The translations under genes and the position numbers were made by a program. The notes beneath the pieces were generated by a model, which made no database searches, was not told the DNA's origin, and worked only from the letters and a program-made list of their open reading frames with translations. Positions 1 to 26,633 of a stretch of DNA of 64,000 bases are shown here, piece by piece (position 1 is the stretch's first letter; each line of letters starts with the position of its first letter). The DNA comes from Bulinus truncatus (Eukaryota). The DNA is taken from positions 21,050,893-21,114,892 of the forward strand of contig JAGDYQ010000002.1 in assembly GCA_021962125.1 (NCBI GenBank), given 5' to 3'.

Positions 1-2535
1 GTACTTGCTTCTTCAGTTGATGTTTCTGTCGTCTCCACATATGGTGCACTTGCTTCTTCAGTTGATGTTTCTGTCGTCTCCACATATGGTGCACTTGCTT
101 CTTTAGTTGATGTGTCCGTTCTCTCAATATATGGTGTACTTGCTTCTTCAGTTGATGTTTCGTTCGTCTCAACATATTGTGCACTTGCTTCTTCAGTTGA
201 TGTTTCTGTTTTCTCAATAGATGGTGTACTTGCTTCTTCAGTTGATGTTTCTGTCGTCTCCACATATGGTACACTTGCTTCTTCAGTTGATGTTTCTGTT
301 CTCTCAATAGATGGTGTACTTGCTTCTTCAGTTGATGTTTCTGTCGTCTCAATAGATGATGTACTTGCTTCTTCAGTTGATGTTTCTGTCGTCTCCACAT
401 ATGGTGCACTTGCTTCTTCAGTTGATGTTTCTGTTCTCTCAATAGATGGTGTACTTGCTTCTTCAGTTAATGTTTCTGTCGTCTCCACATATGGTGCACT
501 TGCTTCTTCAGTTGATGTTTCTGTTCTCTCAATAGATGGTGTACTTGCTTCTTCAATAGTTTTTTCTGTCGTCTCAATAGATGATGTACTTGCTTCTTCA
601 GTTGATGTTTCTGTTCTCTCAATAGATGGTGTACGTGTTTCTTCAGCTGATGTTTCTGTCGTCTCAATAGATGGTGTACTTGCTTCTTCAGTTAATGTTT
701 CTGTTCTCTCAATAGATGGTGTACTTGCTTCTTCAGTTGATGTTTCTGTTCTCTCAATAGATGGTGTACTTGCTTCTTCAGTTGATGTTTCTGTCGTCTC
801 AATAGATGGTGTACTTGCTTGTTTATTAGTTGTTGCTGTCGTCTCAATAGATGGTGCACTTGCTTCTTCAGTTGATGTTTCTGTTCTCCCAATAGATGGT
901 GTACTTGCTTCTTCAGTTGATGTTTCTGTCGTCTCAATAGATGATGTACTTGCTTCTTCAGTTGATGTTTCTGTCGTCTTCACATATGGTGCACTTGCTT
1001 CTTCAGTTGATGTTTCTGTTCTCTCAATAGATGGTGTACTTGCTTCTTCAGTTGATGTTTCGGTCGTCTCAATAGATGATGTTCTTGCTTCTTCAGTTGA
1101 TGTTTCGTTCGTCTCAACATATGGTGCACTTGCTTCTTCAGTTGATGTTTCTGTCGTCTCAATAGATGTTGTACTTGCTTCTTCAGTTGATGTTTCTGTC
1201 GTCTCAATAGATGTTGTACTTGCTTCTTCATTTGATGCTTCTGTTCTCTCAATAGATGTTGTACTTGCTTCTTCAGTTGATGTTTCTGTCGTCTCAATAG
1301 ATGTTGTACTTGCTTCTTCATTTGGTGCTTCTGTTCTCTCAATAGATGGTGTACTTGCTTCTTCGGTTGATGTTTCTGTCCTCTCAATAGATGGTGTACT
1401 TGCTTCTTCAGTTGATGTTTCCGTTCTTTCAATAGACGGTGTAATTGCTTCTTCAGTTGATGTTTCTGTTCTCTCAATATATGGTGTACTTGCTTCTTCA
1501 GTTAATGCTTCGGTCGTATCAATAGATGGTGTACTTGCTTCTTTAGTTGATGTTTCTGTTCTTTCAATAGATGGTGTATTTGCTTCTTCAGTTGATGTTT
1601 CTGTTCTCTCAATATATGGTGTACTTACTTCTTCAGTTAATGTTTCTGTCGTCTCAATAGATGGTGTACTTGTTCCTCCAGTTGATGTTTTTTTAGTTAT
1701 AGTAACGGATGTGCTTTTTTCTGCTGTTGATGTTTCTGTCGTCTCAATAGATGGTGTACTTGTTATTGTTGATGTTGCTTTTGTTGACACATGTATGTGA
1801 AGACGATTAGTTATCGTAGAGACAGACGGAGATGTAAAATATTCTGCTGAGACAGGTAACACTGCCCTCGATGCAATATTTATTGTTACAGAAGTTGTGG
1901 AAGACAGTGTGGAGACTGTTGGTGTAGATGTAGTCTGCACTGTTTCAGACAGTGTGGACACTGTTGGTGTAGATGTAGTCTGCACTGTTTCAGACAGTGT
2001 GGACACTGTTGGTGTAGATGTAGTCTGCACTGTTTCAGACTGAGTGGAGACTGTTGGTGTAGATGTAGTCTGCACTGTTTCAGACTGAGTGGAGACTGTT
2101 GGTGTAGATGTAGTCTGCACTGTTTCAGACTGAGTGGAGACTGTTATGTAGATGTAGTCTGCACTGTTTCAGACTGAGTGGAGACTGTTGGTGTAGATGT
2201 AGTCTGCACTGTTTCAGACAGTGTGGAGACTGTTGGTGTAGATGTAGTCTGCACTGTTTCAGACTGAGTGGAGACTGTTGGTGTAGATGTAGTCTGCACT
2301 GTTTCAGACTGAGTGGAGACTGTTGGTGTAGATGTAGTCTGCACTGTTTCAGACTGAGTGGAGACTGTTGGTGTAGATGTAGTCTGCACTGTTTCAGACT
2401 GAGTGGAGACTGTTGGTGTATATGCTGTTGTCAATGTTATGATAGATGTTAGGCCAGTGGTCATATAATAGTCGTCTGATGACATTTCTGTTTGAATGTT
2501 ACTTCCCGTCATAGACCCAGTGCTCCACGGTATAT
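1..2535 (-). CDS. Terminal PTS (mucin) exon that continues beyond the window start. It begins DIPWSTGSMTGSNIQTEMSSDDYYMTTGLTSIITLTTAYTP. Then come about 12 copies of the 14-aa repeat TPTVSTQSETVQTTS (42-bp units, about 1900-2410). Then come about 40 copies of the 15-aa repeat TSTEEAS(T/A)P(S/Y)(I/V)E(K/T)TE (45-bp units, 1-1800). The frame is broken by a stop and a 1-bp deletion at about 2144-2148.
   Basis: Acceptor aaaaacag|AT is in phase with the E exon. The minus frame is Ser/Thr/Pro/Glu-rich with no stops over the stretches checked. The frame with codon low-ends at coordinates divisible by 3 (mod-0 frame) below 2141 encodes the same peptide repeat as the frame offset by two (mod-2 frame) above it. 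Confidence 0.55.
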
Positions 2536-3363
2536 CTGTTTTTAAAAAAAAGATCATTCTGTACAGAGATATTTTTTTAGAAAGGATATATCATGAAATA
2601 ATAAAAATTACGATTTAAAAATTATTATTTAATAGTCAAAACCATTAACACTTAATTTACCCACAGGGTAAATTTTAAGAGGGTGCAAGGTACACTGATA
2701 GGGTCTTAGAGTAGCCACTGAGGGGTACTCAGCAGTACACTTGTCCTCATGGAGATGGCGAGAGTATTATGCACAGCCTTGTGCAAGTATCTTTGGTGGG
2801 ACTTTTTGATGGAGTGTGTCAGATGGGAATAAAGAACCTGAAGAGTTGGCCACTTCACAAAGACGCTCACAAAGCACGGCTCTTTGTACGCTTTCAAATG
2901 ATGTCTATGTATAGTGATTTATTTTTGCTTTATTGTCTTTGAAACAACGTTTTTGTTACAGGTGGGCACCTTTATTATTTTTTTTTATAAATGTCAGGAT
3001 CGCCAAAAGATAGAGGGGGTGTGCAAGTTTTACACATGCTAGAGGCCTGTGCACTTTGCGTTCCGACGGGTTGATTCATATGTTATATAGTGAATAGGCA
3101 GTGATTATGTATTTGGGATTAGAGGCGCTCCATTTGGTGGGCATGGTCAGAGGCCCAAGATTAGCGGGGGGGGGGGGGGGGGAGGGTTACCCTTGTATGC
3201 ATATTTTTAGATTTAAGTGTTAGTTTTTCTCATCTAATATGTAACTTAAATATCCAAAAAAAATCAATAATAATAATACTAAAACAAATTGCAGGATTTT
3301 AAAATCAACCTAGGTGTCAACAACAAACAAATGTCCAAACTTTCTCAAGAGGCGGCGTCTTAC

Positions 3364-3452
3364 CACACATGTCCGAGTGGACAACGTTTCCATTTCTGGA
3401 ACACCTCGGGCAGGATCTCCCATTGCACAGCAACTGACCGTTGTCACACGAG
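3364..3452 (-). CDS. Mucin-like gene, module 3 E-like Cys-rich exon (CSCDNGQLLCNGRSCPRCSRNGNVVHSDMC).
   Basis: It is a paralogous pattern to the module 2 E exon (NCQDGRLTCNEKGC..). Acceptor ttccacaag and donor G|gtaaga. Confidence 0.6.
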
Positions 3453-3614
3453 CTTGTGGAATATAAATGTACACGGCATTGACCGTAATAAAAAACAAAA
3501 GGACTAAAATAAACACAGACACGAATACAATAAAAACATAGGCTAGAGTAGGGTTGGCGCATTTTGTGAGGGCCGCATTGGTTTTTAAATTTGACTTAAG
3601 GGCCGGACGATGAT

Positions 3615-3830
3615 GAGATGGGATGGGACAGTGACGTCGCGAGCTTTACTCGCGCCCGGGGCACAATACCTTTTAATACCTTTTTTAGCGCCCCCCCCAT
3701 TCAAAAGCCATATAATATTCTATGTAAAATATATCATACGGCGCCCCTTTGTGAGTAGCGCCCGGAGTTTGATGCCCCCCTTGCCCACCCCTCACCACGC
3801 CTCTGGGGTGGGTCGTTAATATGAAGTAAT
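3615..3830. mobile_element. Short palindromic interspersed repeat family B, copy 1 (gcgagctttactcgcgcccggggcacaatacc ... ggcgcccctttgtgagtagcgcccgg).
   Basis: Homologous to 28655-28835 and 53865-54030. The inverted arms are built around a ccccgggcgc core and flank an AT-rich loop (catataatattatatg). Confidence 0.65.
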
Positions 3831-4340: not shown

Positions 4341-4434
4341 CAATGTGAGCAGTCCACTGGGGGCATTGACCCAGTCTGAGTTAGTCTCGTGACGTCATAG
4401 CAAGCGCAGTCACTCTGGGGTATACAGTTGGATC
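4341..4434 (-). CDS. Mucin-like gene, module 3 TIL exon b (GSNCIPQSDCACYDVTRLTQTGSMPPVDCSH).
   Basis: It supplies the CI....C.C...tail..DC..(W/C) portion seen at the end of the single-exon TILs of modules 1 and 2. Acceptor cttcttag and donor TG|gtatgt. Phase 1 in and phase 2 out exactly bridge its neighbours. Confidence 0.6.
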
Positions 4435-5799
4435 CTAAGAAGTGATAAATAATTTAACCTTTCACAATATGAAAGATTATCTCCTAGACATCTGTCATAT
4501 TACATTTAACAGAAAATATCTACGTATAATGATAGATGGAAATTTCTGAATGTTTGTCTGTTGAAACATCAAATAAAATAAAACAACCCAACTAAATCAC
4601 TATTTTTGTTTCTTGACTAGACAATATTGCTAAAAAATAGACCACTTTCGGGGACAAGGTGTAATAAGTGCGCCTGGTCATTCTCAGAAACAATCATTTA
4701 TCCAATGGCGTAATGAATTTTTTTTCGAACATTTTTAAGAATTTCTTCTTTATGAAGAATTTTTCGATTTAATTATTGAGAAAAACTATTACTTATTACA
4801 TCTAAAACTATTTATTTAAAAAAAAATAATTAAAGAGCAATAAGAGCTGGAGATTATTTCTACACAACAGGTAGGTGTCGTGAATTGGCACCCATTTCTG
4901 TACCTCAACTAGACGACTAATAATATAGGGCAGTGGGGGTCGAACCTATGCCCCAGTTGGCACGCAGAACCCCATCAGTCGGCACGCGACTAACATATCA
5001 TTTCCTTTAATTTTAGCACCTTATTATAAATAAGTGGCTTTTACGGTTGAATTTCGGGGCAAGTGGTCCCAAAAAGTTTAGCCACCTCTGATAGAAGGTA
5101 TACGCATTAAAAAAAAAGTTTCATGTGTCACTTTAAGTGACACATAGGACTTCCCGCGCAACTCAGCTAGCGTTTAATATGACATCAAATATTGTATATA
5201 AGTTGTAAAGAAATGTGAATTATTCAAATTATTATGGGTACACAGCTAGCGTTTAATATGACATCAAATATTGTATATAAGTTGTAAAGAAATGTAAATT
5301 ATTCAAATAAACCTAACTTAATGAATTATATTTATATACAAGAATACATGAGTTTATAATTTATGAATATTATATGTCACAGATTGACTGTGTGTGCGTG
5401 TGTGTGTGCGTGTGTGTGTGTGTGTGCAGGGGAGAGCACCAGCGTGTAACTGGAGACTGAGTGGTGCGTCGCGTGTCTGTGTGTGTAGTTAACGTTCAGT
5501 TGTTGGAACGAAAAGTCGTGTGATACACCTGGTATGCGAGATCGTGCGAATATAGTGTCATTGGTACATCGTATTCAAGTGGTCGATTAAAGATTTTAGT
5601 ATTTCATCTCAAAATTGGAGTCGGTGTTTTGTGTGTCACCTAAGATGTTGTGTTGTTATTTCTAATTACCCTAGATATAAGGTGCAAATGATAATGACTA
5701 GATGATAAAATGAGTCACATGGATATGGACAGTATATGACTTCATGACCTATAACTGCATAACACCCAGTTACATGTTATGGGTCTCACCGTTCCAGAC

Positions 5800-5938
5800 G
5801 AGGTCACTGGGGCAGAAGCACCCCTCCACGTCCAGAGTCCTGCGGCAGCTGGTCACGTTACGGGCCAAGTCAGCGCATGTCCGGTGGCAGGGTGACCCTT
5901 TAGCCTGGTACACCATACCCCCCTCACACTGGACAGCT
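5800..5938 (-). CDS. Mucin-like gene, module 3 TIL exon a (PVQCEGGMVYQAKGSPCHRTCADLARNVTSCRRTLDVEGCFCPSDLVWNG).
   Basis: The N-terminal two-thirds of the TIL Cys pattern is present. Acceptor ccccacag and donor G|gtgaga. An in-frame stop follows if read through. Confidence 0.65.
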
Positions 5939-6886: not shown

Positions 6887-7005
6887 CCAACTTACGGCAA
6901 AGTTGCTGACGTCTCCATTTTGTGGGAAAACCCACAGCAGCGCAGGAGGAAGCGAAGAAAGCAATGGAGTCACACAGGCACTCGCAGTCACCACCCCTAT
7001 CACAG
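6887..7005 (-). CDS. Mucin-like gene, module 3 C8 exon b (SCDRGGDCECLCDSIAFFASSCAAVGFPTKWRRQQLC).
   Basis: The C8 signature C..GGDCEC.C......A..C...G....WR....C is present. Acceptor ttattccag and donor C|gtaagt. Confidence 0.65.
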
Positions 7006-7374: not shown

Positions 7375-7515
7375 CCTGCAAGCATTCTCCTTACAGTCAC
7401 TGAAGAACCGATTGATGTTCGCCTGGGGCATAGCACGCCGGCACGACTGGAATGTTTCGGAGGTCGTGATGACACCACACCTGGAGTTGGCCCACGTGGC
7501 TCTCTCAGAATGTTT
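7375..7515 (-). CDS. Mucin-like gene, module 3 C8 exon a (KHSERATWANSRCGVITTSETFQSCRRAMPQANINRFFSDCKENAC).
   Basis: The C8 N-terminal half is present. An in-frame TAG lies immediately upstream of the acceptor tctag. Donor AG|gtgagt. Confidence 0.6.
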
Positions 7516-7980
7516 CTAGACTCGTTGAAAAAAAATATAAATTGTGAGAAGTTCCCGATGTTAAGGGAATTAAGGTAAACAAAAGGTGTCACATAGACTA
7601 ATTATATGACATTTCATGTAATTAGTTGACATTTAAAGTAATAAAATCACATTGGAATCAATGTGATGCCTTTTAAAACCTAAATGAAATAAGGTTAACA
7701 TTTAAACCAATACAATAACATTTAAACCAATACAATAAGATATACACTTTTGTGAAGCCATTTAAGCTAATAGGATAACCTTTAAACCCACCAGTAGATA
7801 TTAATGCTAAGATGACATTTAAACTAATGAATTGATGTTTACACTTGTGTGATGTAGATGAAACTGCTTTGTATATTTGATATTTTTCTAATAAAATTGT
7901 CTCGCAAAAAATCAAATCAAACGTTTACATCAAACTTAAAAAAAAAAAAAACTTTGGTGAGTTTTAATATTCCACATACT

Positions 7981-8158
7981 TGACATGGAGGAGTCGATAA
8001 GTCGAAGTCGGAGTCGGAGCAAGTGGCTCCATCCTCGATCCATGACGTCACAAAGCTCCGGATGTTGCTGTCCAGTGAGTGGTCGGGCCTGACCAGGTCG
8101 TTGATGGAGTTGTTGTCGTAGTTCCCGCACAGACCTTCCAGCTTCTTGAACCATCGGT
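7981..8158 (-). CDS. Mucin-like gene, module 3 vWD exon c (DRWFKKLEGLCGNYDNNSINDLVRPDHSLDSNIRSFVTSWIEDGATCSDSDFDLSTPPCQ).
   Basis: The motif GLCGNYDNN..ND is followed by F..SW......C. Acceptor caagtgtcag and donor CAA|gtatgt. Confidence 0.7.
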
Positions 8159-8733
8159 CTGACACTTGAATTCTGGTGAAGAGACCTTCAGAAACACAAC
8201 AGCAAAGAATGAGTTAAGCCCACAGTTCTCAACCGGTGATGCGAGTACCCCCGAAGGGTATGGGAATCGTTATGCACGAGGTACGCAGCGACATATATAG
8301 TTTGCATTAAAAATAAACCCAGAGCTTGAAGGTTGCTAGTTTGGTGCATGACCCGCGGACATACTTTCGGACCCTTTGGGCAGGGCCGCTTTATCATATA
8401 GGCACAGTAGGCACTGTGCTTAGGGCCTACGGACTTTTCAAGGGCCTACGAAAGCCAGAATGGCAAATAAGTGCCGGTGCATTCTTGAAAAATATTAAAA
8501 AATGTAATCGGGGAGGGCAGATCCGATTTTTTCATGTTTGTATTTTTAACTGGAATACTGTTGTATTAATTCTTTAATTTCGATTTAACGCAGAACCCAT
8601 ATCTCTTTTATTTTATTAGATTATTTACATATATAATTCTTTTTTTTTCTTTTGGTTTTTATATAGATTGTGCATATTGTAAGTCTAATTTCGATCAGAA
8701 ACCAATGATGATGACAAACTCAGAATCTCCTAC

Positions 8734-8961
8734 CTCCTGTCCAGTACACAGAAATATCTTCAAAAGAGACCACCGTGTACAGAGTGGACGAGAAGACTCG
8801 AAAATTTCCTAGTTCTGGACTCTGGTCAGCGAAGTACGTCCTGTTGCCCGCCACAACCCCCAGTTCCTTGTTCAACTGTATGTTCTGGTCCTTGTACTGG
8901 ATGTCGATCTGGTGGGAGCAGGATGACCCCGTTGACCCACAGGCCCAGTTCTTGACACTGA
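8734..8961 (-). CDS. Mucin-like gene, module 3 vWD exon b (VSVKNWACGSTGSSCSHQIDIQYKDQNIQLNKELGVVAGNRTYFADQSPELGNFRVFSSTLYTVVSFEDISVYWTG).
   Basis: The vWD core has the paired Cys and a VNG-like segment. Acceptor gacgcag and donor G|gtagga. Confidence 0.6.
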
Positions 8962-9804
8962 CCTGCGTCCAACATTAATCAGTGTCATAAAACTTAAATA
9001 TTTGCGTGCATTTATAACTGTCGTAGATATATTTGTGTTTTTGTTGAACTTTTCACGTGTTGTGTGTGATCGTGAAGAGTGAGTGGGTGACAGGTCAGAA
9101 GTAAAAAGATAAGGTGATTGGCTGAGGTGGTCAGATGACAAGGGGTGGACCATGATGTCGAAAGTGGAAGGATGATGACGGTGGAGTTGCTGGAGAGATA
9201 TGATACTTAGTGGTGGATTACGCTGTGTTGATGGATTCTTTTTATTATTATTAGTAGTAGTACTGTTATAGGTATAACAAATGTTGACCATGTATCTCTC
9301 GTTGACTAAATGTGTGAGTGAATGGTGGCAAGCACTGGACATGACAGTTTAAAGTTATGACGAAATAACTATATCTTTTTTGTTGACTTTTGTCTTTAAA
9401 GGTAAACACAATCAATTAGTATTGTCAGCGTACATGGTATACTATTATGGTATATTCCAGAGTTATTAGTATGGATAAACTAGGCGAAACCAGGGGTGAT
9501 CATTTCAATATGTGGGCCACATTAGGTTCTTAAGTTTGAAAGTAAGAGTTAGGTAAATTGGTTGAGTGTTTGTATATACATTAATATAAACTGAACGTTA
9601 AAGTAATAGATGTAAGCAAGAGAAAAAGAGAATTGCATGGCACGGATCAACATCAAACAGCGTGTCGGGCCGTATATCCCGTGGGTCCTAGTTCGCCCAT
9701 GTCTGGGCTAGGGTAAGAGGACCCCCTGGCAGTGCTAATTTGTGCCATATCTAATAACATAAAGTCGTGTACTCGCGATTAGCTAAATTTTGCTTATATT
9801 CTTT

Positions 9805-10650: not shown

Positions 10651-10904
10651 TGTATATTGAATAACTCTAAAATATTCATAAGATCATCAGGTCTTCACAG
10701 GCAGACACCAGAGCCGTCAATTAGAGGCATTTCCTAGCCTCCCCCCCCCCCATCACCAGACAACATCTGTACCAGGGACATCAGTAACCTTATGACGGCT
10801 CCATTGTAACCATTTCTCAGAAATGAAAAAAGTAAAATCACAGTCTGAATGGAAGTCACAGTCACAAAGTCCCACAGGTGGACGTACTAACTGTCCCACT
10901 CACC

Positions 10905-11025
10905 TTGACGTAGGCATCGTATCCGCTTGACTTCATCAGTGTGTACGGGCAGTGACCAAAGAAGCTTAGGCTGCTACCATCAAAGGTCACAACTCGCATC
11001 AATGTCCCCAATATGTAGCACGAGG
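10905..11025 (-). CDS. Mucin-like gene, module 3 vWD exon a (ASCYILGTLMRVVTFDGSSLSFFGHCPYTLMKSSGYDAYVK).
   Basis: The vWD start signature C.....TFDG..F.F.G.C.Y.L is present. Acceptor ttcccatag and donor AAG|gtgagt. Confidence 0.7.
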
Positions 11026-11689
11026 CTATGGGAATAGAGCGAGACACGAGTTTTGTCCATTTTTAAAGTAAGACCAAGCCACAAAATATGTCAGTGTCTG
11101 TCAGGTAAATGTGTCAATGTTAGGTCAAGTGACGGACACATTAGTCAATGTAACATCAAGTGATGTGCGCATCACACTGTTAAATCAGATGATGGACACA
11201 TTTGTCAGTATTAAATCAGGTCATGGACACATTTGTCAATGTTGTCAACTGAAACATGCCAAGTGAGACTTAAACTACGTCAATGTTTTGTCATGTCAGT
11301 CAATATTTTTCTTTTCTACTCTATTTCAAATGAGCGAGACACAGATAAAGACAAAAAGACTCTTCTTGCACATGTTCAAATATCCCACCTAGACAGTCTG
11401 GCGTTCTCTCGATCTTCTGCCACTGGCTGTTGTTACATCGGCTGTAGACAAACGCGGAAATTGTGGTGAAAATACATTTTCAATGAATTAAAAGAGTGTA
11501 AATCTTGTGTTGCCATGGCGAAATCGTTTTATTCTAATATACTATATTAACTGTTTTTTAATCATTTTGATTTTAAACATAACTTGGCCATGCAATTTAT
11601 TTTTCATCAACACACTTAATTTGGCATCTGTTATATTCAGCGACATACATTTCTTTCCATTCAGTTTATATAACACTTGTTGAGCCTGT

Positions 11690-11880
11690 TATATTTCATG
11701 TACTTACTTAATGTTACACCTGACTGTTATATTTCATGTACTTACTTAATGTTACACCTGATTGTTATATTTCATGTACTTACTTAATGTTACACCTGAC
11801 TGTTATATTTCATGTATGTACTTAATGTTACACCTGACTGTTATATTTCATGTACTTACTTAATGTTACACCTGACTGTT
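11690..11880. repeat. Tandem repeat of roughly 43-bp units (ctgttatatttcatgtacttacttaatgttacacctga), about 4.5 copies.
   Basis: Direct tandem copies. Confidence 0.85.
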
Positions 11881-12229
11881 ATGTAAGATCCATGGTCGTG
11901 CCAAACGTCGTTATAAAAACATGGACACATGCCAGTTGGAACACAGAGACCCTCCTGGAAACAATTAGTTTGAAATATATCTTTTTAAAATTCAGGCGAT
12001 GAAATAAACAACGAAACAATAGCAGATATCAGTTAAACATCAATATTTCGCTGACGCTTAAATGTTTTTTTTTTGCTTTGTGAAATAAGCAATAACAACA
12101 AAAGTGTATCTATTGTGAAAAACAGACTCACACACAAACGTGCGCTCACAGTCATACATACACACGTACAGGCACATACATATGCAGAAAAATACAAAGA
12201 TGCAAATACACAGATGCAAAACATGCAGC

Positions 12230-12987: not shown

Positions 12988-13201
12988 AGTAGTCTCAACG
13001 AAACCTGATCTGCAGACACACTTTCTGTCCGTGGGCGGGTCATTGAGGCATGTCACGCTGCTGCCCGTTTTGTCTGGGCACCTGTACCGGGCGCAGGCCC
13101 CGGGGCCGGGTCGACTGTATGTATAGACTGTCTGATTGGCTGGGCAGACGATCTCCTCACAGCCCTTCTCATTACAAGTCAAGCGTCCATCTTGACAGTT
13201 G
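12988..13201 (-). CDS. Mucin-like gene, module 2 E-like Cys-rich exon (CNCQDGRLTCNEKGCEEIVCPANQTVYTYSRPGPGACARYRCPDKTGSSVTCLNDPPTDRKCVCRSGFVETT).
   Basis: Acceptor ttttgtccag and donor G|gtaagt. The C.DG.L.C....C pattern follows the TIL domain, as in vWF D-assemblies. Confidence 0.65.
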
Positions 13202-13708: not shown

Positions 13709-13958
13709 CAATGAAAACAGGAATCATTCACGAATGGGCCAGGACTGATGTATCTCCCTGACTTGGCGTCGAGACAAGGGCACTGGTCGCGGTGTATGCA
13801 GCGCCCGTCTTGATTAAGAAGTCTGCCGCCCCGGCAAGAGCACCCTGGGATCGTCTTGTCTGTGAACATCCGGGCGCCTAGCTGCAGATCGAGACAATGT
13901 GTCTGCCATACGCGTACACGGTCATTCTGTTCCAGATCACCGGAGCATGTCATCATAT
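13709..13958 (-). CDS. Mucin-like gene, module 2 TIL exon (MMTCSGDLEQNDRVRVWQTHCLDLQLGARMFTDKTIPGCSCRGGRLLNQDGRCIHRDQCPCLDAKSGRYISPGPFVNDSCFH).
   Basis: The TIL Cys pattern is present with the same CPC..SG.Y.SP...V.DSC..W tail as module 1. Acceptor tctattacag and donor TG|gtgggt. Confidence 0.7.
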
Positions 13959-14830: not shown

Positions 14831-15037
14831 CTTTAACCTCTGGAAGCTTCACGAAACCGTTTATCTGACTGTACAAGTAGCTCAGCGGCACCTGTGACAC
14901 GTGAGAAATTTTCAGGATTGTGGACTGGATGACCTTGAGGTCTCTGCTGGCGAAGGCTATCTTGTCCAGGTTAGTGACGGACACTCTAGTCGGTTGTATG
15001 TCGTCTATGTAGTAATTCAGATCCGGTACTTGAATCT
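14831..15037 (-). CDS. Mucin-like gene, module 2 Cys-free linker exon (IQVPDLNYYIDDIQPTRVSVTNLDKIAFASRDLKVIQSTILKISHVSQVPLSYLYSQINGFVKLPEVK). It sits where modules 1 and 3 carry C8 exons.
   Basis: Acceptor cgcacag and donor G|gtgagt. The entry and exit phases match the neighbouring exons. The open frame is partly inflated by the adjacent minisatellite. Confidence 0.45.
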
Positions 15038-15480: not shown

Positions 15481-15648
15481 CTTGGTTTGTACTGCACCGC
15501 CGTAATCCACACGGCCGTAGCCAGAATGACCACAGGAGTTCACCGTGTAGGCCTGTATGAAGCTCTCGTCAGACGGGGCTTCAATGCCTGAAGGGAGGCA
15601 CCGGTCATCGTCAATCTGTTTGTTCATGTTGCCACACAGACCCCGTAG
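15481..15648 (-). CDS. Mucin-like gene, module 2 vWD exon c (LRGLCGNMNKQIDDDRCLPSGIEAPSDESFIQAYTVNSCGHSGYGRVDYGGAVQTK).
   Basis: The diagnostic vWD motif GLCGN(M/F)N...DD is present. Acceptor gagtccag and donor AAG|gtgatt. Confidence 0.7.
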
Positions 15649-16709: not shown

Positions 16710-17030
16710 CCAACTCACCGTGCCAGGCTCGTAGAACGAGTCCCATGTCGCCACCACCAAGTAATTCACATTGAAGAGTAAAATCCGGAAGTTGAAAGCA
16801 TCTATTGCGACACTGGACGTGGTCGGCTGCCGGACGTAAAGGACGCTGTCAGAGTAAGGCATCTGCACGCTCTGATTCTTTTTAAGGTCTAGGACCTCTG
16901 GTTGTCGATCAGTCTTGAACTTGACAATCAAATGGACCTTATCGGCCCTGATTTCAACGCCCCCGGGTAAGATGTTGGCGGGGTTATCCGGGGATTGCTT
17001 TGAAATCATATTGATTACCAAACCGTTTGT
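16710..17030 (-). CDS. Mucin-like gene, module 2 vWD exon b (QTNGLVINMISKQSPDNPANILPGGVEIRADKVHLIVKFKTDRQPEVLDLKKNQSVQMPYSDSVLYVRQPTTSSVAIDAFNFRILLFNVNYLVVATWDSFYEPGT).
   Basis: A 107-codon open exon with acceptor tgtttccag and donor ACG|gtgagt, phase 0 at both ends. It is a Cys-poor vWD core. Confidence 0.6.
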
Positions 17031-17205: not shown

Positions 17206-17365
17206 GGGATGGGTGACCAGAGTAAAGGAACACTCTACTTCATCTGACGTCAGCAGAAATTCCTGTTTGTCAAACGTGGTCAGCGCCCCTGGGCCGTACA
17301 CGGAGCAAGAGGCGTAACAGTTGTAGGACACCGAGCAGTTCCACACTCCCCTGATCCCACATGTG
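17206..17365 (-). CDS. Mucin-like gene, module 2 vWD exon a (CTCGIRGVWNCSVSYNCYASCSVYGPGALTTFDKQEFLLTSDEVECSFTLVTHP).
   Basis: The vWD N-terminal signature C..YG....TFD...F.......C.F.L is present. Acceptor ccctatcag and donor CCC|gtgagt. Confidence 0.65.
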
Positions 17366-17926: not shown

Positions 17927-18175
17927 CAATTTTGACAGGTATCGTGAACGTAGACAGACTCGTTTGGGCTGTACGACAGGCCGTTCAGGGAGCAGGGACA
18001 CTGGCTGGGGTCGATGCAGGTCCTGTTGTAGTTCACCAGACCGCCTGGGCAGTGACAGCCCGCCACGCAGGAGCGGCACTCCGACTGGATGTTGCCGGTC
18101 AGCGTGGGGCGACCGCAGGCCGGGCGGCAGGAGGGCCCGCAGTCTCGATACACAAAGTTGGAAGGGCAGGTCCTG
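17927..18175 (-). CDS. Mucin-like gene, module 1 TIL (trypsin-inhibitor-like) domain exon (RTCPSNFVYRDCGPSCRPACGRP..CRSCVAGCHCPGGLVNYNRTCIDPSQCPCSLNGLSYSPNESVYVHDTCQNW).
   Basis: The canonical 10-Cys TIL spacing is present (CP.N..Y..C...C...C.....C..C..GC.CP.G.V....CI....CPC). Acceptor tttttttaag and donor TG|gtcagt. Confidence 0.75.
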
Positions 18176-18499
18176 CCTTAAAAAAAAATACATCGCATTG
18201 TTGATAAAATAAAATATTGATTGTAAAAGAAAATATTAATGTTGGAATATTATATTGATGTTGGGATGAAATATTGATGTTGGGATAAAATATTGATTGC
18301 TTAAAATATTGATGTTTGGATAACATATTGTTAATAAAGTGGATAGAAATATTGAGGATGAAATTAAATTGAGATGGAAACTTCAAAGTATCGTTCAATG
18401 TACGGCACAACTTCAGTATTGTCAGTAGGTGTTTTTTTAACTTGTGATAAATTAAGTGGTGATCAGTGTGTGAGTTCTTTTTCTAATGTATTTCTGTCA

Positions 18500-18675: not shown

Positions 18676-18831
18676 CGCATCCGGATTCCTCTCTCCATTT
18701 GATTTGAATTTTCTCATTCAGGCATGCGCCAGAGTATCCGCTGATGACATGACATCTCATGTCATTCTCGGCGCTGACAGAGGCTGAGCAGTAGATCTGC
18801 TGGCAGTACTTGACATAAGGCCTGACATCCA
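18676..18831 (-). CDS. Mucin-like gene, module 1 C8-domain exon b (VDVRPYVKYCQQIYCSASVSAENDMRCHVISGYSGACLNEKIQIKWREESGC).
   Basis: The C8 pattern V.P..Y..C...C.....C....YS.AC......W is present. Acceptor cacctcag and donor G|gtgaat. Confidence 0.6.
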
Positions 18832-19059
18832 CCTGAGGTGAATTATTATCCAATAAAGCCATTACTGATAAAAGTAAAAAGTTAAAACCAAACTCTATAA
18901 CTGTTAATTCTTTACTGTTTAACACTTCGCGTTAACTCCCGTTTATCCCCCCTCCCTTTTCTAACACCCCCTCCCCCTCTTCACAATAATGGAACATGCA
19001 GCATTTTCCGTCTTCAGGTGAACAACAAAAGAAATAAATTAAGAACGAATGGGCCAAGA

Positions 19060-20305: not shown

Positions 20306-20410
20306 ACTATTTACCTTAGAGTGACAGGGACTAAATAGACCTGAAGATAGAATGGAGCAAGCTGAGTCCGCATCAGATGGCGTATCGCAAGGCTGATTGA
20401 CCTGATTACA
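20306..20410 (-). CDS. Mucin-like gene, module 1 C8-domain exon a (CNQVNQPCDTPSDADSACSILSSGLFSPCHSK).
   Basis: The C8 N-terminal pattern C..SAC..L...F..CH. is present. Donor AAG|gtaaat. Phase is 0 at both ends. Confidence 0.6.
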
Positions 20411-21089: not shown

Positions 21090-21148
21090 TGTTGGTGATG
21101 CTATGGTAGCATTCACGAAGTATTTCTGCAGCACAGAGCTGTAGTTAT
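21090..21148 (-). CDS. Mucin-like gene, module 1 short exon (DNYSSVLQKYFVNATIASPT).
   Basis: Acceptor ttatcag and donor ACA|gtaagt. It is in phase on both sides. Confidence 0.45.
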
Positions 21149-21984: not shown

Positions 21985-22065
<81 letters not shown>

Positions 22066-22390: not shown

Positions 22391-22500
22391 GGCGCCTCAA
22401 ATAATTATATACTGCCCTTATTCTCGCCCAGACCTTTAGTTATGAACAGCGTAGTACTTAACAACAGACAATGGCCATAATTTTAGATACATCACTGACC

Positions 22501-22665
22501 TGTATCTAGCATTCCACAGACTCCGCCTATAAACTTCTCAGTCCTCAATGGAAAGTTGTTGCCGACCGAGATAAGAATTTCAGTGCCGCTGTCCCGTCGG
22601 ATGGACAGGTCCAGGCTAGGGAAGGCCAGGAAAACACTGTCGCCGATACTGTCGAAGCTGATTTC
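22501..22665 (-). CDS. Mucin-like gene, module 1 vWD exon c (EISFDSIGDSVFLAFPSLDLSIRRDSGTEILISVGNNFPLRTEKFIGGVCGMLDT) containing a GLCG-like motif.
   Basis: Acceptor aatccag and donor G|gtcagt. The C-terminal half of the vWD domain carries the ..Y.G.VCG..D signature. Confidence 0.65.
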
Positions 22666-22796: not shown

Positions 22797-22975
<179 letters not shown>

Positions 22976-23132
22976 GTCTGTCTGTCTGTCTTTTTGTCCG
23001 TGTACCCTTCTGTCTATCTGTCTGTCTATCTATCAGTCTATCTGTCTTTCTGTCTATCTACCTGTCTCTCTATGTGTCTTTCTACCTGTCTGTCTGGGCA
23101 TCCCTCCTCTTACACCCACCCACATCACTGAC

Positions 23133-23265
23133 CTCCAATCCTCTCCACCTGGTCCAGCGAGTCCAGGAACCTCACTGTCTGTAAGGGGTTGGTTTGGTTC
23201 AATCGTCTCATGACTATGACGTCATCGTGCAGCTCATACAGTGCGTCCCTGCTGATTCGTATTCC
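23133..23265 (-). CDS. Mucin-like gene, module 1 vWD exon b (GIRISRDALYELHDDVIVMRRLNQTNPLQTVRFLDSLDQVERIG).
   Basis: Acceptor ttccctcag and donor G|gtcagt. It links in phase. Confidence 0.55.
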
Positions 23266-23269
23266 CTGA

Positions 23270-23941: not shown

Positions 23942-24133
23942 CTTATAGCAGTTTGATGAATCATTGTTGCACGTTGTCCAGGTATCCACTCTGAGTTTAC
24001 CGAACTCCATGAGAGTTGTCTGACAGGAAGTACATGGTTCGTAAGACACTCCAAGAAACGTGCGTACAGCGCAGTTGGCGCCTATTCTACAGGTCCGGAT
24101 GGGAGCAGCCGGGGATGGCTTACTGGGACGTGA
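23942..24133 (-). CDS. Mucin-like gene, module 1 vWD exon a (..SKPSPAAPIRTCRIGANCAVRTFLGVSYEPCTSCQTTLMEFGKLRVDTWTTCNNDSSNCYK).
   Basis: Acceptor tttcacag and donor AAG|gtaacc. The phase matches both flanking exons. Confidence 0.55.
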
Positions 24134-24136
24134 AAA

Positions 24137-24255
24137 ACCGACAGCTGTGAAAGTAGAACAACAACATCTGTGAAAGTAGAACAACAACATCTGTGAAAGT
24201 AGAACAACAACAGCTGTGAAAGTAGAACAACAACAGCTGTGAAAAGTAGAACAAC
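24137..24255. repeat. Tandem repeat of 22-bp units (ctgtgaaagtagaacaacaaca), 5 copies, immediately upstream of the module 1 vWD exon a acceptor.
   Basis: Direct tandem copies. Confidence 0.85.
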
Positions 24256-24977: not shown

Positions 24978-25111
24978 CATAGAAGCAGTCAACACATGCG
25001 CCGCCATCTTCTGTCACTCCCCACGAGCGCGAGGCGTCACGGCAGCACTCAGACACATTGACCAATGAACTGTTGAACAGCGGTTCTTTCGCGCAGTTCT
25101 TCTGGGCAAAA
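24978..25111 (-). CDS. Putative Cys-rich exon (..EPLFNSSLVNVSECCRDASRSWGVTEDGGACVDCFY). The acceptor is uncertain.
   Basis: Donor TATG|gtaaac lies in phase with the exon at 23942-24133. There is a second CC..G..C motif. Confidence 0.4.
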
Positions 25112-25577
25112 CAAACTTGAAAACTTTCGTTTTTGGGAGCTTGATATCGAGTGCCATTGTTGGATCGTAGATTCAGAGAGGAAATGATAGGTGAAAAAAT
25201 GCAAAAAAAAAAGGTAAATTGTTAACGACAGTCCGCCCTCCAGATAAATGGGTCATTCGTGTCACGTGCATGACAGATGGCGCTGTTTACGCTTAAATGC
25301 AATGAAATATAAGGGTAAAGACAAAGATGTCTTTCAAGTAAATAAGAATTATTAGCGAGTAATTTTTCTGTCCATTTCTTTCGACTTATACTAAGACCTT
25401 TACTATTACATATGGAAGAACCCTTTATCTCGTAGGCGAACTGTTGCTAACCGAAAAAATGCCCATTTTTAAATAAAAAGACTTTTTAATGCAATCATAA
25501 TATCATTTTTTGATAACCATTTACCCCCCCCCTCCCCAATATAATCAGGTAGTTACAGATATATAAAAGTCACTTAC

Positions 25578-25636
25578 CAATATCACAGTTTTTACCACTG
25601 TAACCTGAACAACATTCTTCTATTGGTATTGTTCTG
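25578..25636 (-). CDS. Putative exon encoding TIPIEECCSGYSGKNCDI (an EMI-domain-like CCxGYxGxxC motif).
   Basis: Acceptor ttatccag and donor G|gtaagtg. The Cys motif is typical of the EMI domain C-terminus. Confidence 0.4.
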
Positions 25637-26497
25637 GATAAATGGAAGCAAATTGTTATCAAATCTATATAAATATAAATATACATACCTAGCTTCCAAG
25701 CTACTAGCAAGTTCATACAGGTATTTGTCTTCCGACCTCACCTTCAAACCTACATTTCTATCTACAATCATAACTTTCTACTTACTAAAATACCTAGAAA
25801 CCTATCTTTAGCCAATCTCCAAACCCAGCTACCTAATTACATACTAACATACCTATCTTCCTACCCATATCTACCAAAACTTCTAACCACATAATTATCT
25901 ATCTACAAACCGAAACAACAAACCATCTACCTAATACATTTATATCTAATTACTAGCCCCTGGACCGTTTTAAGGTCATTGTAGGCCCTAGACACTTTCA
26001 AAGTCGTTGGTCCTCCCCATCTTCATTTTAAATATTTTTTCAAGAATGCACCCACACTTCTTTGCGATTTGAAATCTAAATAAACTTTGAGGACGTCATA
26101 TGTGACTTTGCTAAGACAAAGAGCCGAAAAGTTAACATACTGTAATTTACAGATCTACAGCACTGCAGCTTGACGTGCTCATCTCACACGGTTATATATA
26201 GTTACTTTAATACAAACATTAATAAATTTTATTGGCATTCTGAACTTGTTTTCACTTTATGTTCTGACTTTCGTAGGCCCTTGAAAAGTCCGTAGCCCCT
26301 AGGCACAGTGCCCAATTGATAAAGCGGCCCTGACTAGCCTACCTACTATCTATCTCCTAACCCGACCGAGATACATATTTACTAACGTATCTATTATATA
26401 TCTGCTAACCCTACATATATATACATATATATACAAACTCAACAACCTACTCCTACATACAGTTTAAATAAAGTCAGCCATTATTGACCACACCCAC

Positions 26498-26633
26498 TTG
26501 TATATGACACAGTCCTGCATAGTTCCGTTCAGCACTGTCGCCATGATGTTCCCCACGTCTTTGTTCCATTTGTTCCTGACGTTCGTCAGGTTCACGTCCA
26601 GCTGCCAGTTTTGCAGGAACACTTCCTGCAACG
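26498..26633 (-). CDS. Putative upstream exon of the mucin-like gene (ALQEVFLQNWQLDVNLTNVRNKWNKDVGNIMATVLNGTMQDCVIY). The true 5' end of the gene was not identified.
   Basis: Acceptor tatgcag and donor AA|gtgggt. The phase-2 end joins in frame to the exon at 25578-25636. The frame is open. Confidence 0.35.

What the first reader, a model, noticed from the sequence alone, without database searches (positions are those of the whole stretch)
1..26633. Giant modular mucin-like gene with three tandem vWD-C8-TIL-E exon cassettes
Three paralogous cassettes span 17927-24133, 12988-17365 and 3364-11025. Each encodes a vWD domain (with GLCGN or GVCG motifs), C8 exons in modules 1 and 3, a 10-Cys TIL and a C.DG.L.C Cys-rich unit, always in that order. 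Intron phases are fully consistent across 27 junctions. The gene then ends in a PTS repeat exon. This is the architecture of gel-forming mucins and of FCGBP, otogelin or hemocytin-like proteins. The cassettes look like products of internal tandem duplication with later divergence. Module 2 lost its cysteines and C8 exons, and the module 3 TIL is split by an extra intron.
Basis: partly seen in the sequence, partly recalled or inferred. Interest (0 to 1): 0.7.

Follow-up and report, generated by a model that had tools for sequence, protein, structure and literature searches.

The report
Snail SCO-spondin-like mucus mucin gene
This is one large, real, minus-strand gene of the snail Bulinus truncatus that encodes a secreted mucin-like protein of the von Willebrand factor/mucin/SCO-spondin superfamily. 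It is the counterpart of the 'pedal mucus protein 3' of other gastropods, so it is an ordinary member of a known family that the public annotation has cut short.

Summary
The sequence observation holds. On the minus strand I rebuilt a 28-exon gene (window 28281 to 1) with 27 GT-AG introns and an open frame of 1513 codons.

Pfam calls on the spliced protein:
- Module 3: VWD, C8 and TIL, all full length.
- Module 2: VWD and a partial TIL, no C8.
- Module 1: C8 and TIL. Its VWD is too diverged for Pfam but is supported by profile-profile comparison (99.2%) and by a fold match to mucin/VWF D1D2.

- A cassette-less TIL'-E' unit (D') lies between modules 2 and 3. The layout is therefore the ancient D1-D2-D'D3 N-terminus, not a gene-specific tandem duplication.
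- The gene does not end in the window. The TAA at 2144-2146 comes from a 1-nt deletion in one repeat unit, and the PTS frame stays open to position 1.
- The gene starts upstream of 26633.

The organism is Bulinus truncatus. The public model Btru_028333 covers only D1-D2. The Biomphalaria pfeifferi ortholog, 'pedal mucus protein 3', aligns end to end at 47.7% identity. The closest named family is the mollusc SCO-spondin-like mucus proteins. Verdict: new member of a known kind, low to moderate interest.

The parts
28190..28281 (-). Putative exon 1: ATG plus signal peptide MLEVKGRRQTCQTFVCWIVIVCLIVHWTTA. Donor CAG|GTAAGA, phase 2.
   Evidence: Scan for an ATG, a hydrophobic stretch and a phase-compatible donor. 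Joined to 26689 it gives ...TTA-R-PCKTQ, a 30+1-residue leader like that of B. pfeifferi (...SLA-R-RCKTP). Inferred; there is no transcript evidence.
26498..26689 (-). N-terminal Cys-rich exon a (PCKTQTSQ...DCVIYK).
   Evidence: tblastn of the Biomphalaria ortholog, residues 31-95, 40% identity, E 3e-11. GT-AG.
25578..25633 (-). N-terminal exon b (TIPIEECCSGYSGKNCDI).
   Evidence: The CCxGWxGxxC motif is conserved in orthologs.
24978..25139 (-). N-terminal exon c (CFAQKNC...ECCRDASRSWG...CVDC).
   Evidence: tblastn of the ortholog, residues 113-165, 47% identity. No Pfam family.
23942..24144 (-). VWD1 exon a.
   Evidence: The junctions are identical to those of the public model Btru_028333.
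23133..23265 (-). VWD1 exon b.
22500..22664 (-). VWD1 exon c (GGVCGMLDT).
21090..21148 (-). VWD1 exon d (DNYSSVLQKYFVNATIASPT).
   Evidence: Best phase-compatible internal exon. Also present in Btru_028333.
20315..20401 (-). C8-1 exon a.
   Evidence: Pfam C8 56.3 bits on the spliced D1.
18676..18832 (-). C8-1 exon b.
17927..18176 (-). TIL1 (plus the start of E1), one 250-nt exon.
   Evidence: Pfam TIL 31.3 bits, 1-55/55.
17206..17365 (-). Rest of E1 plus the start of VWD2.
16719..17030 (-). VWD2 exon b.
   Evidence: Pfam VWD 47.7 bits, 1-155/156, on the spliced D2.
15481..15648 (-). VWD2 exon c (RGLCGNMN).
14831..15035 (-). Cys-free exon in the position of C8-2 (0 Cys).
   Evidence: No Pfam C8. 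hhalign against C8 profiles gives 0.2%. Its last ~45 residues are predicted as three helices, pLDDT 72-81. Conserved and Cys-free in Biomphalaria and Lymnaea, while bivalve orthologs keep a 7-8-Cys C8 there. The ortholog supports the acceptor at 15035 rather than the longer exon of Btru_028333.
13709..13958 (-). TIL2 (7 Cys), one 250-nt exon.
   Evidence: Pfam TIL 17.2 bits, partial. Smith-Waterman against TIL1, z = 8.3.
12988..13201 (-). E2 plus the first half of TIL' (start of D').
   Evidence: Btru_028333 misses this exon because it reads through the TIL2 donor.
11860..11954 (-). Second half of TIL' plus the start of E'.
   Evidence: Pfam TIL 15.2 bits full length in Bulinus (below cut-off); TIL is called in 4 of 6 orthologous segments. 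Collinear with MUC2 780-1202.
11389..11441 (-). Rest of E'.
10904..11025 (-). VWD3 exon a.
   Evidence: Pfam VWD 93.8 bits, 1-155/156.
8734..8962 (-). VWD3 exon b.
7980..8185 (-). VWD3 exon c (EGLCGNYD).
7376..7515 (-). C8-3 exon a.
   Evidence: Pfam C8 47.6 bits, 2-68/68.
6896..7005 (-). C8-3 exon b (CSCDRGGDCECLC).
5790..5936 (-). TIL3 exon a.
   Evidence: Pfam TIL 30.8 bits, 1-55/55, across the junction.
4341..4434 (-). TIL3 exon b.
3364..3452 (-). E3 exon (CSCDNGQLLCNGRSCPRCSRNGNVVHSDMC).
   Evidence: Aligns with the ortholog's E3 and the first residues of its LDLa.
1..2535 (-). PTS exon. An S/T-rich lead-in is followed by 11.6 copies of a 45-nt unit (TSTPTVSTQSETVQT), a linker, and 39.5 copies of a second 45-nt unit (STEEASTPSIETTET). 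A 1-nt deletion creates TAA at 2144-2146. The PTS frame then stays open to position 1 and runs off the window.
   Evidence: The acceptor ACAG|AT is phase-compatible with the E3 donor. The orthologs carry a T/E-rich PTS at the same place.

Best explanation
Window 28281 to 1 (minus strand) carries the 5' two-thirds or so of one Bulinus truncatus gene. It encodes a secreted SCO-spondin-like mucin, the ortholog of the gastropod 'pedal mucus protein 3'.

The protein reads, in order: signal peptide; a roughly 135-residue Cys-rich N-terminal region; D1 (diverged VWD1, C8, TIL, E); D2 (VWD2, a Cys-free helical segment instead of C8, a Cys-depleted TIL, E); D' (TIL'-E'); D3 (canonical VWD, C8, TIL, E); then at least 840 residues of acidic Thr/Ser/Glu-rich tandem repeats (PTS).

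Likely mechanism, inferred from the family: the protein enters the secretory pathway. The D1-D2-D'D3 array folds into disulfide-stabilised assemblies that drive N-terminal disulfide-linked oligomerisation, as in VWF and MUC2/MUC5. The PTS array becomes densely O-glycosylated and forms an extended, negatively charged, water-binding rod. C-terminal domains outside the window (VWC- and TSP1-like in the Biomphalaria ortholog) provide further cross-linking. The product is a structural polymer of the snail's pedal or epithelial mucus.

Shown here: the gene structure, the domain content, the orthology and the fold. Inferred: secretion, oligomerisation, glycosylation, and tissue and mucus function (by analogy with limpet P-vulgata_3).
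For: Gene structure and identity:
- 28 exons and 27 GT-AG introns with an open frame of 1513 codons.
- 757 residues are identical to NCBI 'hypothetical protein Btru_028333 [Bulinus truncatus]'.

Orthology:
- One blastp HSP, model 2-1480 against B. pfeifferi 'pedal mucus protein 3' (KAK0054212.1) 33-1516, 47.7% identity. Lymnaea gives 42% over 16-1343.
- tblastn of the ortholog hits most of the modelled exons, in order.

Domains and fold:
- Pfam domain calls.
- VWD1 by hhalign, 99.2%. Pfam calls VWD in 4 of 6 orthologous VWD1 segments.
- AF2 model of D1-D2, then Foldseek: MUC5AC, VWF D1-A1, MUC5B, VWF D1D2 and MUC2 at E 1e-34 to 1e-28 over about 830 columns.
- PDB phmmer: MUC2 1.7e-92 with D'D3 collinear, VWF 6e-89, MUC5AC/5B, FCGBP.

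PTS:
- Composition T 30%, E 18%, S 18%.
- 0 stops in 714 codons, against 11 in the other frame whose consensus is also stop-free.

Literature:
- Kang 2020 (PMC7333891): limpet P-vulgata_3 has vWFD x3, C8 x2, TIL x2 and LDLa x5, is SCO-spondin-like, was found in all three pedal mucus types, and ISH localises it to the pedal sole.
- Lang 2016 (PMC4948705): three VWD-C8-TIL units plus PTS are the hallmark of gel-forming mucins, and invertebrate mucin-like proteins are closest to SCO-spondins.
Against: - There is no transcript or protein evidence for Bulinus, and exon 1 is inferred only.
- The assembled sequence has an in-frame TAA inside the PTS array (2144-2146). As assembled, the protein would stop after 1513 residues.
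- Variation among PTS repeat copies shows no codon-position bias (50/56/43) and a low synonymous fraction (0.10 against 0.25 expected). Coding status of the distal array therefore rests on the absence of stops and on the orthologs.
- None of the three VWDs has the CGLC (CxxC) motif that VWF D1/D2 use for multimerisation, D2 has lost C8, and TIL2 has lost cysteines. The N-terminal assembly chemistry may therefore differ from that of VWF.
- The LDLa repeats typical of the family are absent from the window.
Confidence: 0.85

Rival explanations
1. The locus is a truncated or decaying allele (pseudogene in progress). The 1-nt deletion at about 2147 is real, so the protein ends after about 130 residues of PTS and the distal 2.1 kb of repeats is no longer translated.
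For: An in-frame TAA at 2144-2146 is created by the change ACACCAACAG to ACATAACAG in one unit. LDLa is lost relative to Biomphalaria and Lymnaea. C8-2 and some TIL2 cysteines are lost. Repeat variation shows no purifying-selection signature.
Against: All 27 introns keep GT-AG and 1513 codons are open. The downstream PTS frame has 0 stops in 714 codons, while a control frame has 11. The C8-2 loss is shared with Biomphalaria and Lymnaea, and the limpet protein also has only two C8, so it is old and tolerated. The Btru.v1 assembly is 10x Nanopore (Flye, medaka, one Pilon step), in which single-base indels inside tandem repeats are expected (PMC8861042).
Confidence: 0.1
2. There are two or more separate genes, as in the public annotation: Btru_028333 (D1-D2, ending just after TIL2) and an unannotated D'D3-PTS gene.
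For: NCBI protein Btru_028333 (P0009) ends by read-through after TIL2 (...CFHWWVWIQTG...SLH*). No annotated Bulinus protein covering D3 was found.
Against: The TIL2 donor (TG|GTGGGT, phase 2) and the next acceptor (CAG|C) complete a Cys codon exactly as at the TIL1/E1 and TIL3/E3 junctions. Orthologs in Biomphalaria, Lymnaea, scallop and Mya are single collinear proteins across this point. The read-through tail has no homolog. D'D3 has no start or signal peptide of its own.
Confidence: 0.03
3. The PTS-like array at 1-2535 is a non-coding minisatellite in an intron, and E3 splices to an exon beyond the window edge.
For: There is no codon-position bias among repeat copies. The array contains a frame break. 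The antisense frame is also nearly open, with 4 stops.
Against: A phase-compatible acceptor (TTTTAAAAACAG|AT) is followed directly by S/T-rich non-repeat sequence in frame. Two unrelated 45-nt repeat families and the linker between them all read as T/S-rich peptide in the same frame with no stop. The period is a multiple of 3. The Biomphalaria ortholog has about 900 residues of T/E-rich repeats at the same position, and Lymnaea and Mya have PTS regions after D3/LDLa.
Confidence: 0.04
4. One reading: the three cassettes arose by internal tandem duplication within this gene lineage and then diverged.
For: The cassettes share domain order and several intron positions and phases: VWD|C8 phase 0, C8|TIL phase 1, and TIL|E phase 2 inside a Cys codon (manual analysis). 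D1 against D3 gives Smith-Waterman z = 21.
Against: The cassettes are only 23-29% identical to each other. Each matches the same-position cassette of scallop and Mya orthologs better than the other positions, and D2 and D3 do so in a fish mucin-2-like protein; D1 against the fish protein is ambiguous. The whole array, including the cassette-less D', is collinear with MUC2, MUC5AC/B and VWF. Lang 2016 traces the triple unit back to ctenophores.
Confidence: 0.02

Closest known systems
Gastropod 'pedal mucus protein 3' (limpet P-vulgata_3, Kang et al. 2020; Biomphalaria pfeifferi KAK0054212.1; Lymnaea stagnalis CAL1533122.1)
   Same: Collinear end to end: 47.7% identity with B. pfeifferi over 1504 columns and 42% with Lymnaea. 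The same Cys-rich N-terminus, D1-D2-D'D3, only two C8 domains (D2 lacks C8), and a PTS after D3.
   Different: Bulinus has no recognisable LDLa between E3 and the PTS, against limpet 5, Lymnaea 4 and Biomphalaria 1. It lacks the N-terminal EGF seen in Lymnaea and the bivalves. VWD1 is diverged beyond Pfam detection, as in Biomphalaria. The PTS repeat units are unrelated in sequence.
Vertebrate SCO-spondin (SSPO)
   Same: Three N-terminal VWD-C8-TIL units. Mollusc relatives are named SCO-spondin-like by NCBI and UniRef. Kang 2020 reports 30.7% identity and 84% coverage between P-vulgata_3 and chicken SCO-spondin. Lang 2016 places invertebrate mucin-like proteins nearest to SCO-spondins.
   Different: There is no LDLa array in the window. 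A long PTS domain is present, which SCO-spondin lacks as far as I recall. The TSP1/SCOR repeats cannot be assessed because they would lie outside the window; the ortholog shows only a weak TSP1 hit. EMI was not detected. I made no direct comparison with a vertebrate SSPO sequence.
Vertebrate gel-forming mucins (MUC2, MUC5AC, MUC5B, MUC6, MUC19)
   Same: D1-D2-D'D3 followed by PTS. The sequence is collinear with a fish mucin-2-like protein and with MUC2/5AC/5B PDB chains. The predicted D1-D2 fold matches MUC5AC, MUC5B and MUC2.
   Different: Identity is only about 24-27%. There is an extra Cys-rich N-terminal region, no C8 in D2, and no CysD seen. The PTS is Glu-rich and Pro-poor (P 5%). The C-terminal CK cannot be seen. 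Lang 2016 could not assign invertebrate proteins to any vertebrate mucin family.
von Willebrand factor
   Same: A D1-D2-D'-D3 N-terminus (PDB phmmer 6e-89; Foldseek to VWF D1-A1 and D1D2 at 1e-34).
   Different: No VWA domains follow D3, there are no CGLC motifs in VWD1 or VWD2, and a PTS sits where VWF has its A domains.
FCGBP, hemolectin/hemocytin and otogelin
   Same: They share VWD-C8-TIL units. FCGBP gives the best summed PDB score (2.5e-117) because its many repeats each match D3.
   Different: Only three units are present, not 13, and no family is detected at the N-terminus. No F5/8-type-C, AbfB or GDPH motif was found in the window-encoded protein.

Membership tests
Gel-forming mucin (sensu Lang et al. 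2016) | Three N-terminal VWD-C8-TIL units | tested here: inconclusive
   VWD x3, two by Pfam and VWD1 only by hhalign 99.2% and by fold. C8 x2 (D2 has none; hhalign 0.2%). TIL x3 plus TIL'..
Gel-forming mucin (sensu Lang et al. 2016) | PTS domain after the third unit | tested here: met
   At least 840 residues with T 30%, S 18%, E 18% and P 5%. Two 45-nt repeat arrays. The acceptor is phase-compatible..
Gel-forming mucin (sensu Lang et al. 2016) | C-terminal VWC and cystine-knot domains | not testable with these tools
   The ORF runs off window position 1. The partial Biomphalaria ortholog shows VWC-like and TSP1-like sequence after its PTS.
SCO-spondin / mollusc SCO-spondin-like (pedal mucus protein 3) | Collinear orthology with named family members | tested here: met
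   47.7% with B. pfeifferi pedal mucus protein 3, 42% with Lymnaea, 27% with scallop SCO-spondin-like, each as a single collinear HSP.
SCO-spondin / mollusc SCO-spondin-like (pedal mucus protein 3) | LDL-receptor class A repeats after D3 | tested here: not met
   No Pfam LDLa on the model. tblastn with Lymnaea and Biomphalaria LDLa and a DCxDxSDE regex find nothing in the window. Only CSRNGNVVHSDMC aligns with the first third of the ortholog's LDLa.
SCO-spondin / mollusc SCO-spondin-like (pedal mucus protein 3) | N-terminal EMI domain; TSP1/SCOR repeats; CTCK | tested here: inconclusive
   EMI is not called by Pfam in Bulinus or in four orthologous N-termini. Any TSP1 or CTCK would lie outside the window.
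von Willebrand factor | VWA domains after D'D3; CGLC motifs in D1 and D2 | tested here: not met
   A PTS follows D3 and there is no VWA. The motifs are GVCG, GLCG and GLCG, with no CGLC.
FCGBP | FCGBP_N domain, about 13 VWD-C8-TIL units, GDPH cleavage motifs | tested here: not met
   Three units, no Pfam family at the N-terminus, no GDPH.
Hemolectin/hemocytin (3+2 VWD) | F5/8 type C domains after the third unit, then two more VWD units | tested here: not met
   No F5_F8_type_C is called. A PTS follows D3 directly. The region beyond the window is unseen.
Otogelin | AbfB domain | tested here: not met
   Not called by Pfam on the model.

The most novel reading that the evidence does not exclude
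Planorbid snails have turned an SCO-spondin-type protein fully into a mucin. The LDLa array seen in other molluscs (limpet 5, Lymnaea 4, Biomphalaria 1) is gone in Bulinus, leaving D'D3 fused directly to a long acidic Thr/Glu-rich O-glycan carrier, while D2 keeps a Cys-free helical module in place of C8. As a large, secreted, heavily O-glycosylated pedal-mucus polymer, it could be the so far unidentified protein core of the 'miracidia-attracting glycoproteins' by which Schistosoma haematobium larvae find Bulinus. That link comes from my own recollection of the host-finding literature and was not tested here.
Probability: 0.08. Interest if true: 0.6.

Novelty: new member of a known kind. Interest (0 to 1): 0.27.

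Why it matters
The practical value is a corrected gene model. The public Bulinus truncatus annotation (Btru_028333, 'hypothetical protein') has three faults:
- It holds only D1-D2.
- It starts in the wrong frame.
- It includes an intronic 30-nt repeat as coding sequence, which gives a spurious pentapeptide-repeat hit, and it ends by intron read-through.

The real gene is at least 28 kb long. It encodes a protein of more than 2,200 residues that is orthologous to a mucus protein shown by proteomics and in situ hybridisation in limpet foot.

For snail biology and schistosome transmission, this gives a named candidate for a major structural mucus glycoprotein. For the evolution of the VWF/mucin superfamily, it adds a documented case of three changes: C8 loss in D2 (shared by the gastropods examined, while bivalves keep C8), VWD1 divergence, and LDLa loss in one lineage. 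None of this changes what is known about the family.

Tried and rejected
1. Pfam on unspliced stop-to-stop ORF composites. It found TIL1 and the module-3 domains but nothing in module 1, so splicing was needed.
3. EMI domain at the N-terminus. I proposed this from the CCxGYxGxxC motif and from memory of SCO-spondin. Pfam and PDB phmmer give nothing. Three orthologs show an EGF that the planorbids lack. Rejected as unsupported.
4. A second 1-nt frameshift at the 5' end. The signal-like ORF MASFNSRRLLYIVCVFIG (26796-26710) is one frame off from VYRRPCKT. I dropped this idea after finding a better exon 1 at 28281-28190 with a strong phase-2 donor. The MASFN ORF is probably a decoy inside intron 1.
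5. The Cys-free exon as a degenerate C8. hhalign gives 0.2%. Only position and predicted helicity link it to C8.
6. Codon-position and synonymous tests on the PTS repeats. They give no signal for or against coding.
7. The look-up of encoding contigs for P0009 returned nothing, so I could not read past the window edge.
I used P0009 instead.
9. VWD1 alone against the PDB gave no VWD hit.
10. A search for an LDLa exon anywhere in the window found none.

Full report
**What is in the sequence.** The window is eukaryotic (about 38% GC, many micro- and minisatellites). The Cys-rich coding pieces of the finding lie on the minus strand. Reading each candidate ORF with its flanks showed canonical splice sites. 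I assembled 27 exons from 26689 down to position 1 and later added a probable first exon at 28281-28190. All 27 introns are GT-AG, 175-1941 nt long, and the joined frame is open for 1513 codons. The module-1 VWD exon begins at 24144 rather than 24133.

**Domain calls.** Pfam on unspliced ORFs found only TIL1 and the module-3 domains. On the spliced protein the results were:

| Region | VWD | C8 | TIL |
|---|---|---|---|
| D3 | 93.8 bits (1-155/156) | 47.6 (2-68/68) | 30.8 (1-55/55) |
| D2 | 47.7 (1-155/156) | none | 17.2 (only 31-55, below cut-off) |
| D1 | not called | 56.3 | 31.3 |

The end-to-end profile coverage across exon junctions in D3 and D2 validates those junctions.

VWD1 is also invisible to phmmer against the PDB. 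Four lines of evidence nevertheless support it:
- It aligns over 162 columns with VWD3, with Smith-Waterman z = 5.6 and 0 of 200 shuffles reaching the score.
- Pfam calls VWD in 4 of 6 orthologous VWD1 segments: Lymnaea and three bivalves, but not Bulinus or Biomphalaria.
- hhalign of the VWD1-ortholog alignment against the VWD3-ortholog alignment gives 99.2% probability, E 6e-20, over 167 columns.
- An AlphaFold2 model of the D1-D2 protein (mean pLDDT 66.6) is beta-rich over VWD1 with pLDDT 66-87. Its best Foldseek matches in the PDB are MUC5AC, VWF D1-A1, MUC5B, VWF D1D2 and MUC2 D1D2D3, at E 1e-34 to 1e-28 over about 830 columns.

Exon 13201-12988 carries E2 plus the first half of a further TIL. 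Exons 11954-11860 and 11441-11389 carry the rest of that TIL and an E module, with no VWD or C8. This TIL'-E' unit is collinear with the D' of MUC2 (query 914-1333 against chain 780-1202), MUC5AC/B and VWF in PDB phmmer alignments. Pfam gives TIL 15.2 bits over the full profile in Bulinus, which is below the cut-off, but calls TIL in 4 of 6 orthologous segments. The layout is therefore D1-D2-D'-D3, the N-terminus shared by VWF, gel-forming mucins and SCO-spondin.

**Module 2.** D2 has 18 Cys, against 31 in D1 and 33 in D3. Between VWD2 and TIL2 there is a single 205-nt exon (15035-14831) encoding a segment with no cysteine.
- It shows no similarity to C8 profiles (hhalign 0.2%).
- Its distal part is predicted as three helices with pLDDT 72-81.
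- The same Cys-free segment is conserved in Biomphalaria and Lymnaea, while scallop, Mya and Potamilus orthologs keep a 7-8-Cys C8 there.
- Pfam finds two C8 in Lymnaea and Biomphalaria and three in the bivalves. Limpet P-vulgata_3 is reported with vWFD x3 and C8 x2.

The loss is old and shared by the gastropods examined, not peculiar to this gene copy. The extra intron in TIL3 is also confirmed. TIL1 and TIL2 are single exons of exactly 250 nt, while TIL3 is 147 + 94 nt.

**Origin of the cassettes.** The cassettes are 23-29% identical to one another. Each one scores best against the same-position cassette in scallop (D1 121, D2 78, D3 143 bits, all on the diagonal) and in Mya. D2 and D3 also score best on the diagonal against a fish mucin-2-like protein, where D1 is ambiguous. 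Model residues 265-1326 align in one HSP with residues 149-1212 of that fish protein (E 1e-63). Lang et al. 2016 trace the triple VWD-C8-TIL unit with PTS back to ctenophores. The triplication is thus an ancient inherited feature. Shared intron positions support an exon-cassette origin, but a very old one. Those positions are VWD|C8 phase 0, C8|TIL phase 1, and TIL|E phase 2 inside a Cys codon TG|C.

**The PTS exon and the 'end' of the gene.** The E3 donor (TGTG|GTAAGA, phase 1) fits the acceptor TTTTAAAAACAG|AT at 2535. The exon then reads as follows:
- S/T-rich unique sequence.
- 11.6 copies of a 45-nt unit (TSTPTVSTQSETVQT, 97% alike).
- A unique S/T-rich linker.
- 39.5 copies of a second 45-nt unit (STEEASTPSIETTET, 86% alike).

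In the unit starting at 2170 the consensus ACACCAACAG reads ACATAACAG. That is a 1-nt deletion plus a substitution, and it creates TAA at 2144-2146. Downstream, the frame that encodes the same peptides has no stop in 714 codons to position 1. The other frame whose consensus is also stop-free has 11 stops, and the antisense frame has 4. Composition is T 30%, E 18%, S 18%, P 5%. Variation among repeat copies shows no codon-position bias, so that test is uninformative.

The orthologs settle the matter. B. pfeifferi has about 900 residues of T/E-rich repeats after D3, followed by VWC- and TSP1-like sequence. Lymnaea and Mya also have PTS regions there. The gene therefore runs off the window. The TAA is most simply an assembly indel, because Btru.v1 was built from 10x Nanopore reads with Flye, medaka and one Pilon step (PMC8861042). 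A real truncating allele remains possible, at about 0.1.

**Identity.** A search with the spliced protein returned NCBI 'hypothetical protein Btru_028333 [Bulinus truncatus]' (P0009, 933 aa). It shares runs of 606 and 151 identical residues with my model, so the window is from that genome. The public model differs from mine in four ways:
- It starts in another frame of exon 2.
- It skips exon 3.
- It extends the Cys-free exon upstream into a 30-nt intronic repeat. This is the source of the Pfam pentapeptide hit.
- It ends by reading through the TIL2 donor.

D'D3 and the PTS are not in any Bulinus protein I could find.

An exhaustive HMMER search with P0009 and a name look-up gave these relatives:
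- Lymnaea stagnalis CAL1533122.1.
- Physella 'mucin-6-like'.
- Argopecten 'SCO-spondin-like'.
- Potamilus 'SCO-spondin'.
- Biomphalaria pfeifferi KAK0054212.1, 'pedal mucus protein 3, partial' (2505 aa), found through a 90% cluster.

My model aligns with the B. pfeifferi protein in one HSP (2-1480 against 33-1516, 47.7% identity), with Lymnaea at 42%, and with scallop at 27%. tblastn of the Biomphalaria protein hits most of my exons, in order. The shortest ones (21148-21090, 11441-11389, 4434-4341, 3452-3364) fall below its detection. The ortholog supports my versions of exons 2-4 and the 15035 acceptor against the public model.

The name 'pedal mucus protein 3' goes back to Kang et al. 2020 (PMC7333891). 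Their P-vulgata_3 is SCO-spondin-like, was found in all three limpet pedal mucus types, and was localised by in situ hybridisation to the pedal sole.

**Differences from relatives.**
- No LDLa repeat exists anywhere in the window. Lymnaea has four and Biomphalaria one between E3 and the PTS. Only CSRNGNVVHSDMC aligns with the start of the Biomphalaria LDLa.
- The N-terminal EGF of Lymnaea, Mya and Potamilus is absent in both planorbids.
- My initial idea of an EMI domain found no support.
- No VWD has a CGLC motif and there is no GDPH.

**How it most likely works.** Shown here: a single gene encodes a signal peptide (inferred exon), a Cys-rich N-terminus, D1-D2-D'D3 with a mucin/VWF-like fold, and a long acidic PTS array. 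Inferred from the family (VWF, MUC2 and MUC5 structures; Lang 2016; Kang 2020): the protein is secreted, the D assemblies mediate disulfide-linked N-terminal oligomerisation, the PTS is densely O-glycosylated into an extended polyanionic rod, and C-terminal domains outside the window add further cross-links. The product would be a structural polymer of pedal or epithelial mucus. The missing CGLC motifs, the missing C8-2 and the Cys-poor TIL2 mean that the assembly chemistry of D1-D2 may differ from that of VWF. That remains open.

**Verdict.** This is a new, under-annotated member of a known kind. Interest is low to moderate, mainly as a corrected gene model for a schistosome vector snail.

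Noticed in passing
window 48684-55305, minus strand: Exons of a vesicular monoamine transporter (SLC18/VMAT-like) gene lie upstream of the mucin gene on the same strand. Three concatenated ORF pieces hit VMAT2, VMAT1 and VAChT structures (best E 3e-29). Pfam on the single exons gives only a weak MFS_1 hit.
   Followed up: partly
window 15036-15420, minus strand (intron before exon 15035-14831): A roughly 30-nt tandem repeat reads as ATLKNAILSN... in frame with the next exon. The public model Btru_028333 includes it as coding sequence, which produces a spurious Pfam pentapeptide-repeat (PF00805) hit. The Biomphalaria ortholog has no such insert.
   Followed up: yes
window 26710-26796, minus strand (intron 1): An ATG-initiated, signal-peptide-like ORF (MASFNSRRLLYIVCVFIGKSQ...) lies directly upstream of exon 2 but one frame off, with a TAA at 26703-26705 between them. 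It is probably a decoy. An alternative first exon or an assembly indel cannot be fully excluded.
   Followed up: partly
window 2144-2170, minus strand: One 45-nt PTS unit has ACATAACAG instead of ACACCAACAG. This 1-nt deletion creates the only in-frame stop of the whole gene. It is likely a Nanopore-assembly indel inside a tandem repeat.
   Followed up: partly
window 12036-12692; 16287-16647; 22703-23184; 23214-23580; 27638-28117; 30279-31221: Introns and flanks are full of micro- and minisatellites that give long spurious ORFs in several frames, for example (TCTA)n reading [10 protein letters not shown]-rich repeats reading CLCLGVCVW, and 30-nt repeats. None is part of the coding model.
   Followed up: no
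window 13591-13708, minus strand: The ORF stays open for about 40 codons past the TIL2 donor (WWVWIQTGALFWCGYKLG...), across a short GGGTGTGGATACAAACTGGGG-type repeat. This explains why the public gene model reads through and terminates here.
   Followed up: yes
window 56001-57233 and 60203-60934: There are further tandem-repeat and low-complexity blocks: a repeat reading GLTVLCRYVGVTMRSDSVLC, and a GA/CT-rich tract giving Arg/Glu/Gly-rich (REGERGG-type) and PSLSL-like ORFs on opposite strands. They lie upstream of the VMAT-like gene. No function was examined.
   Followed up: no
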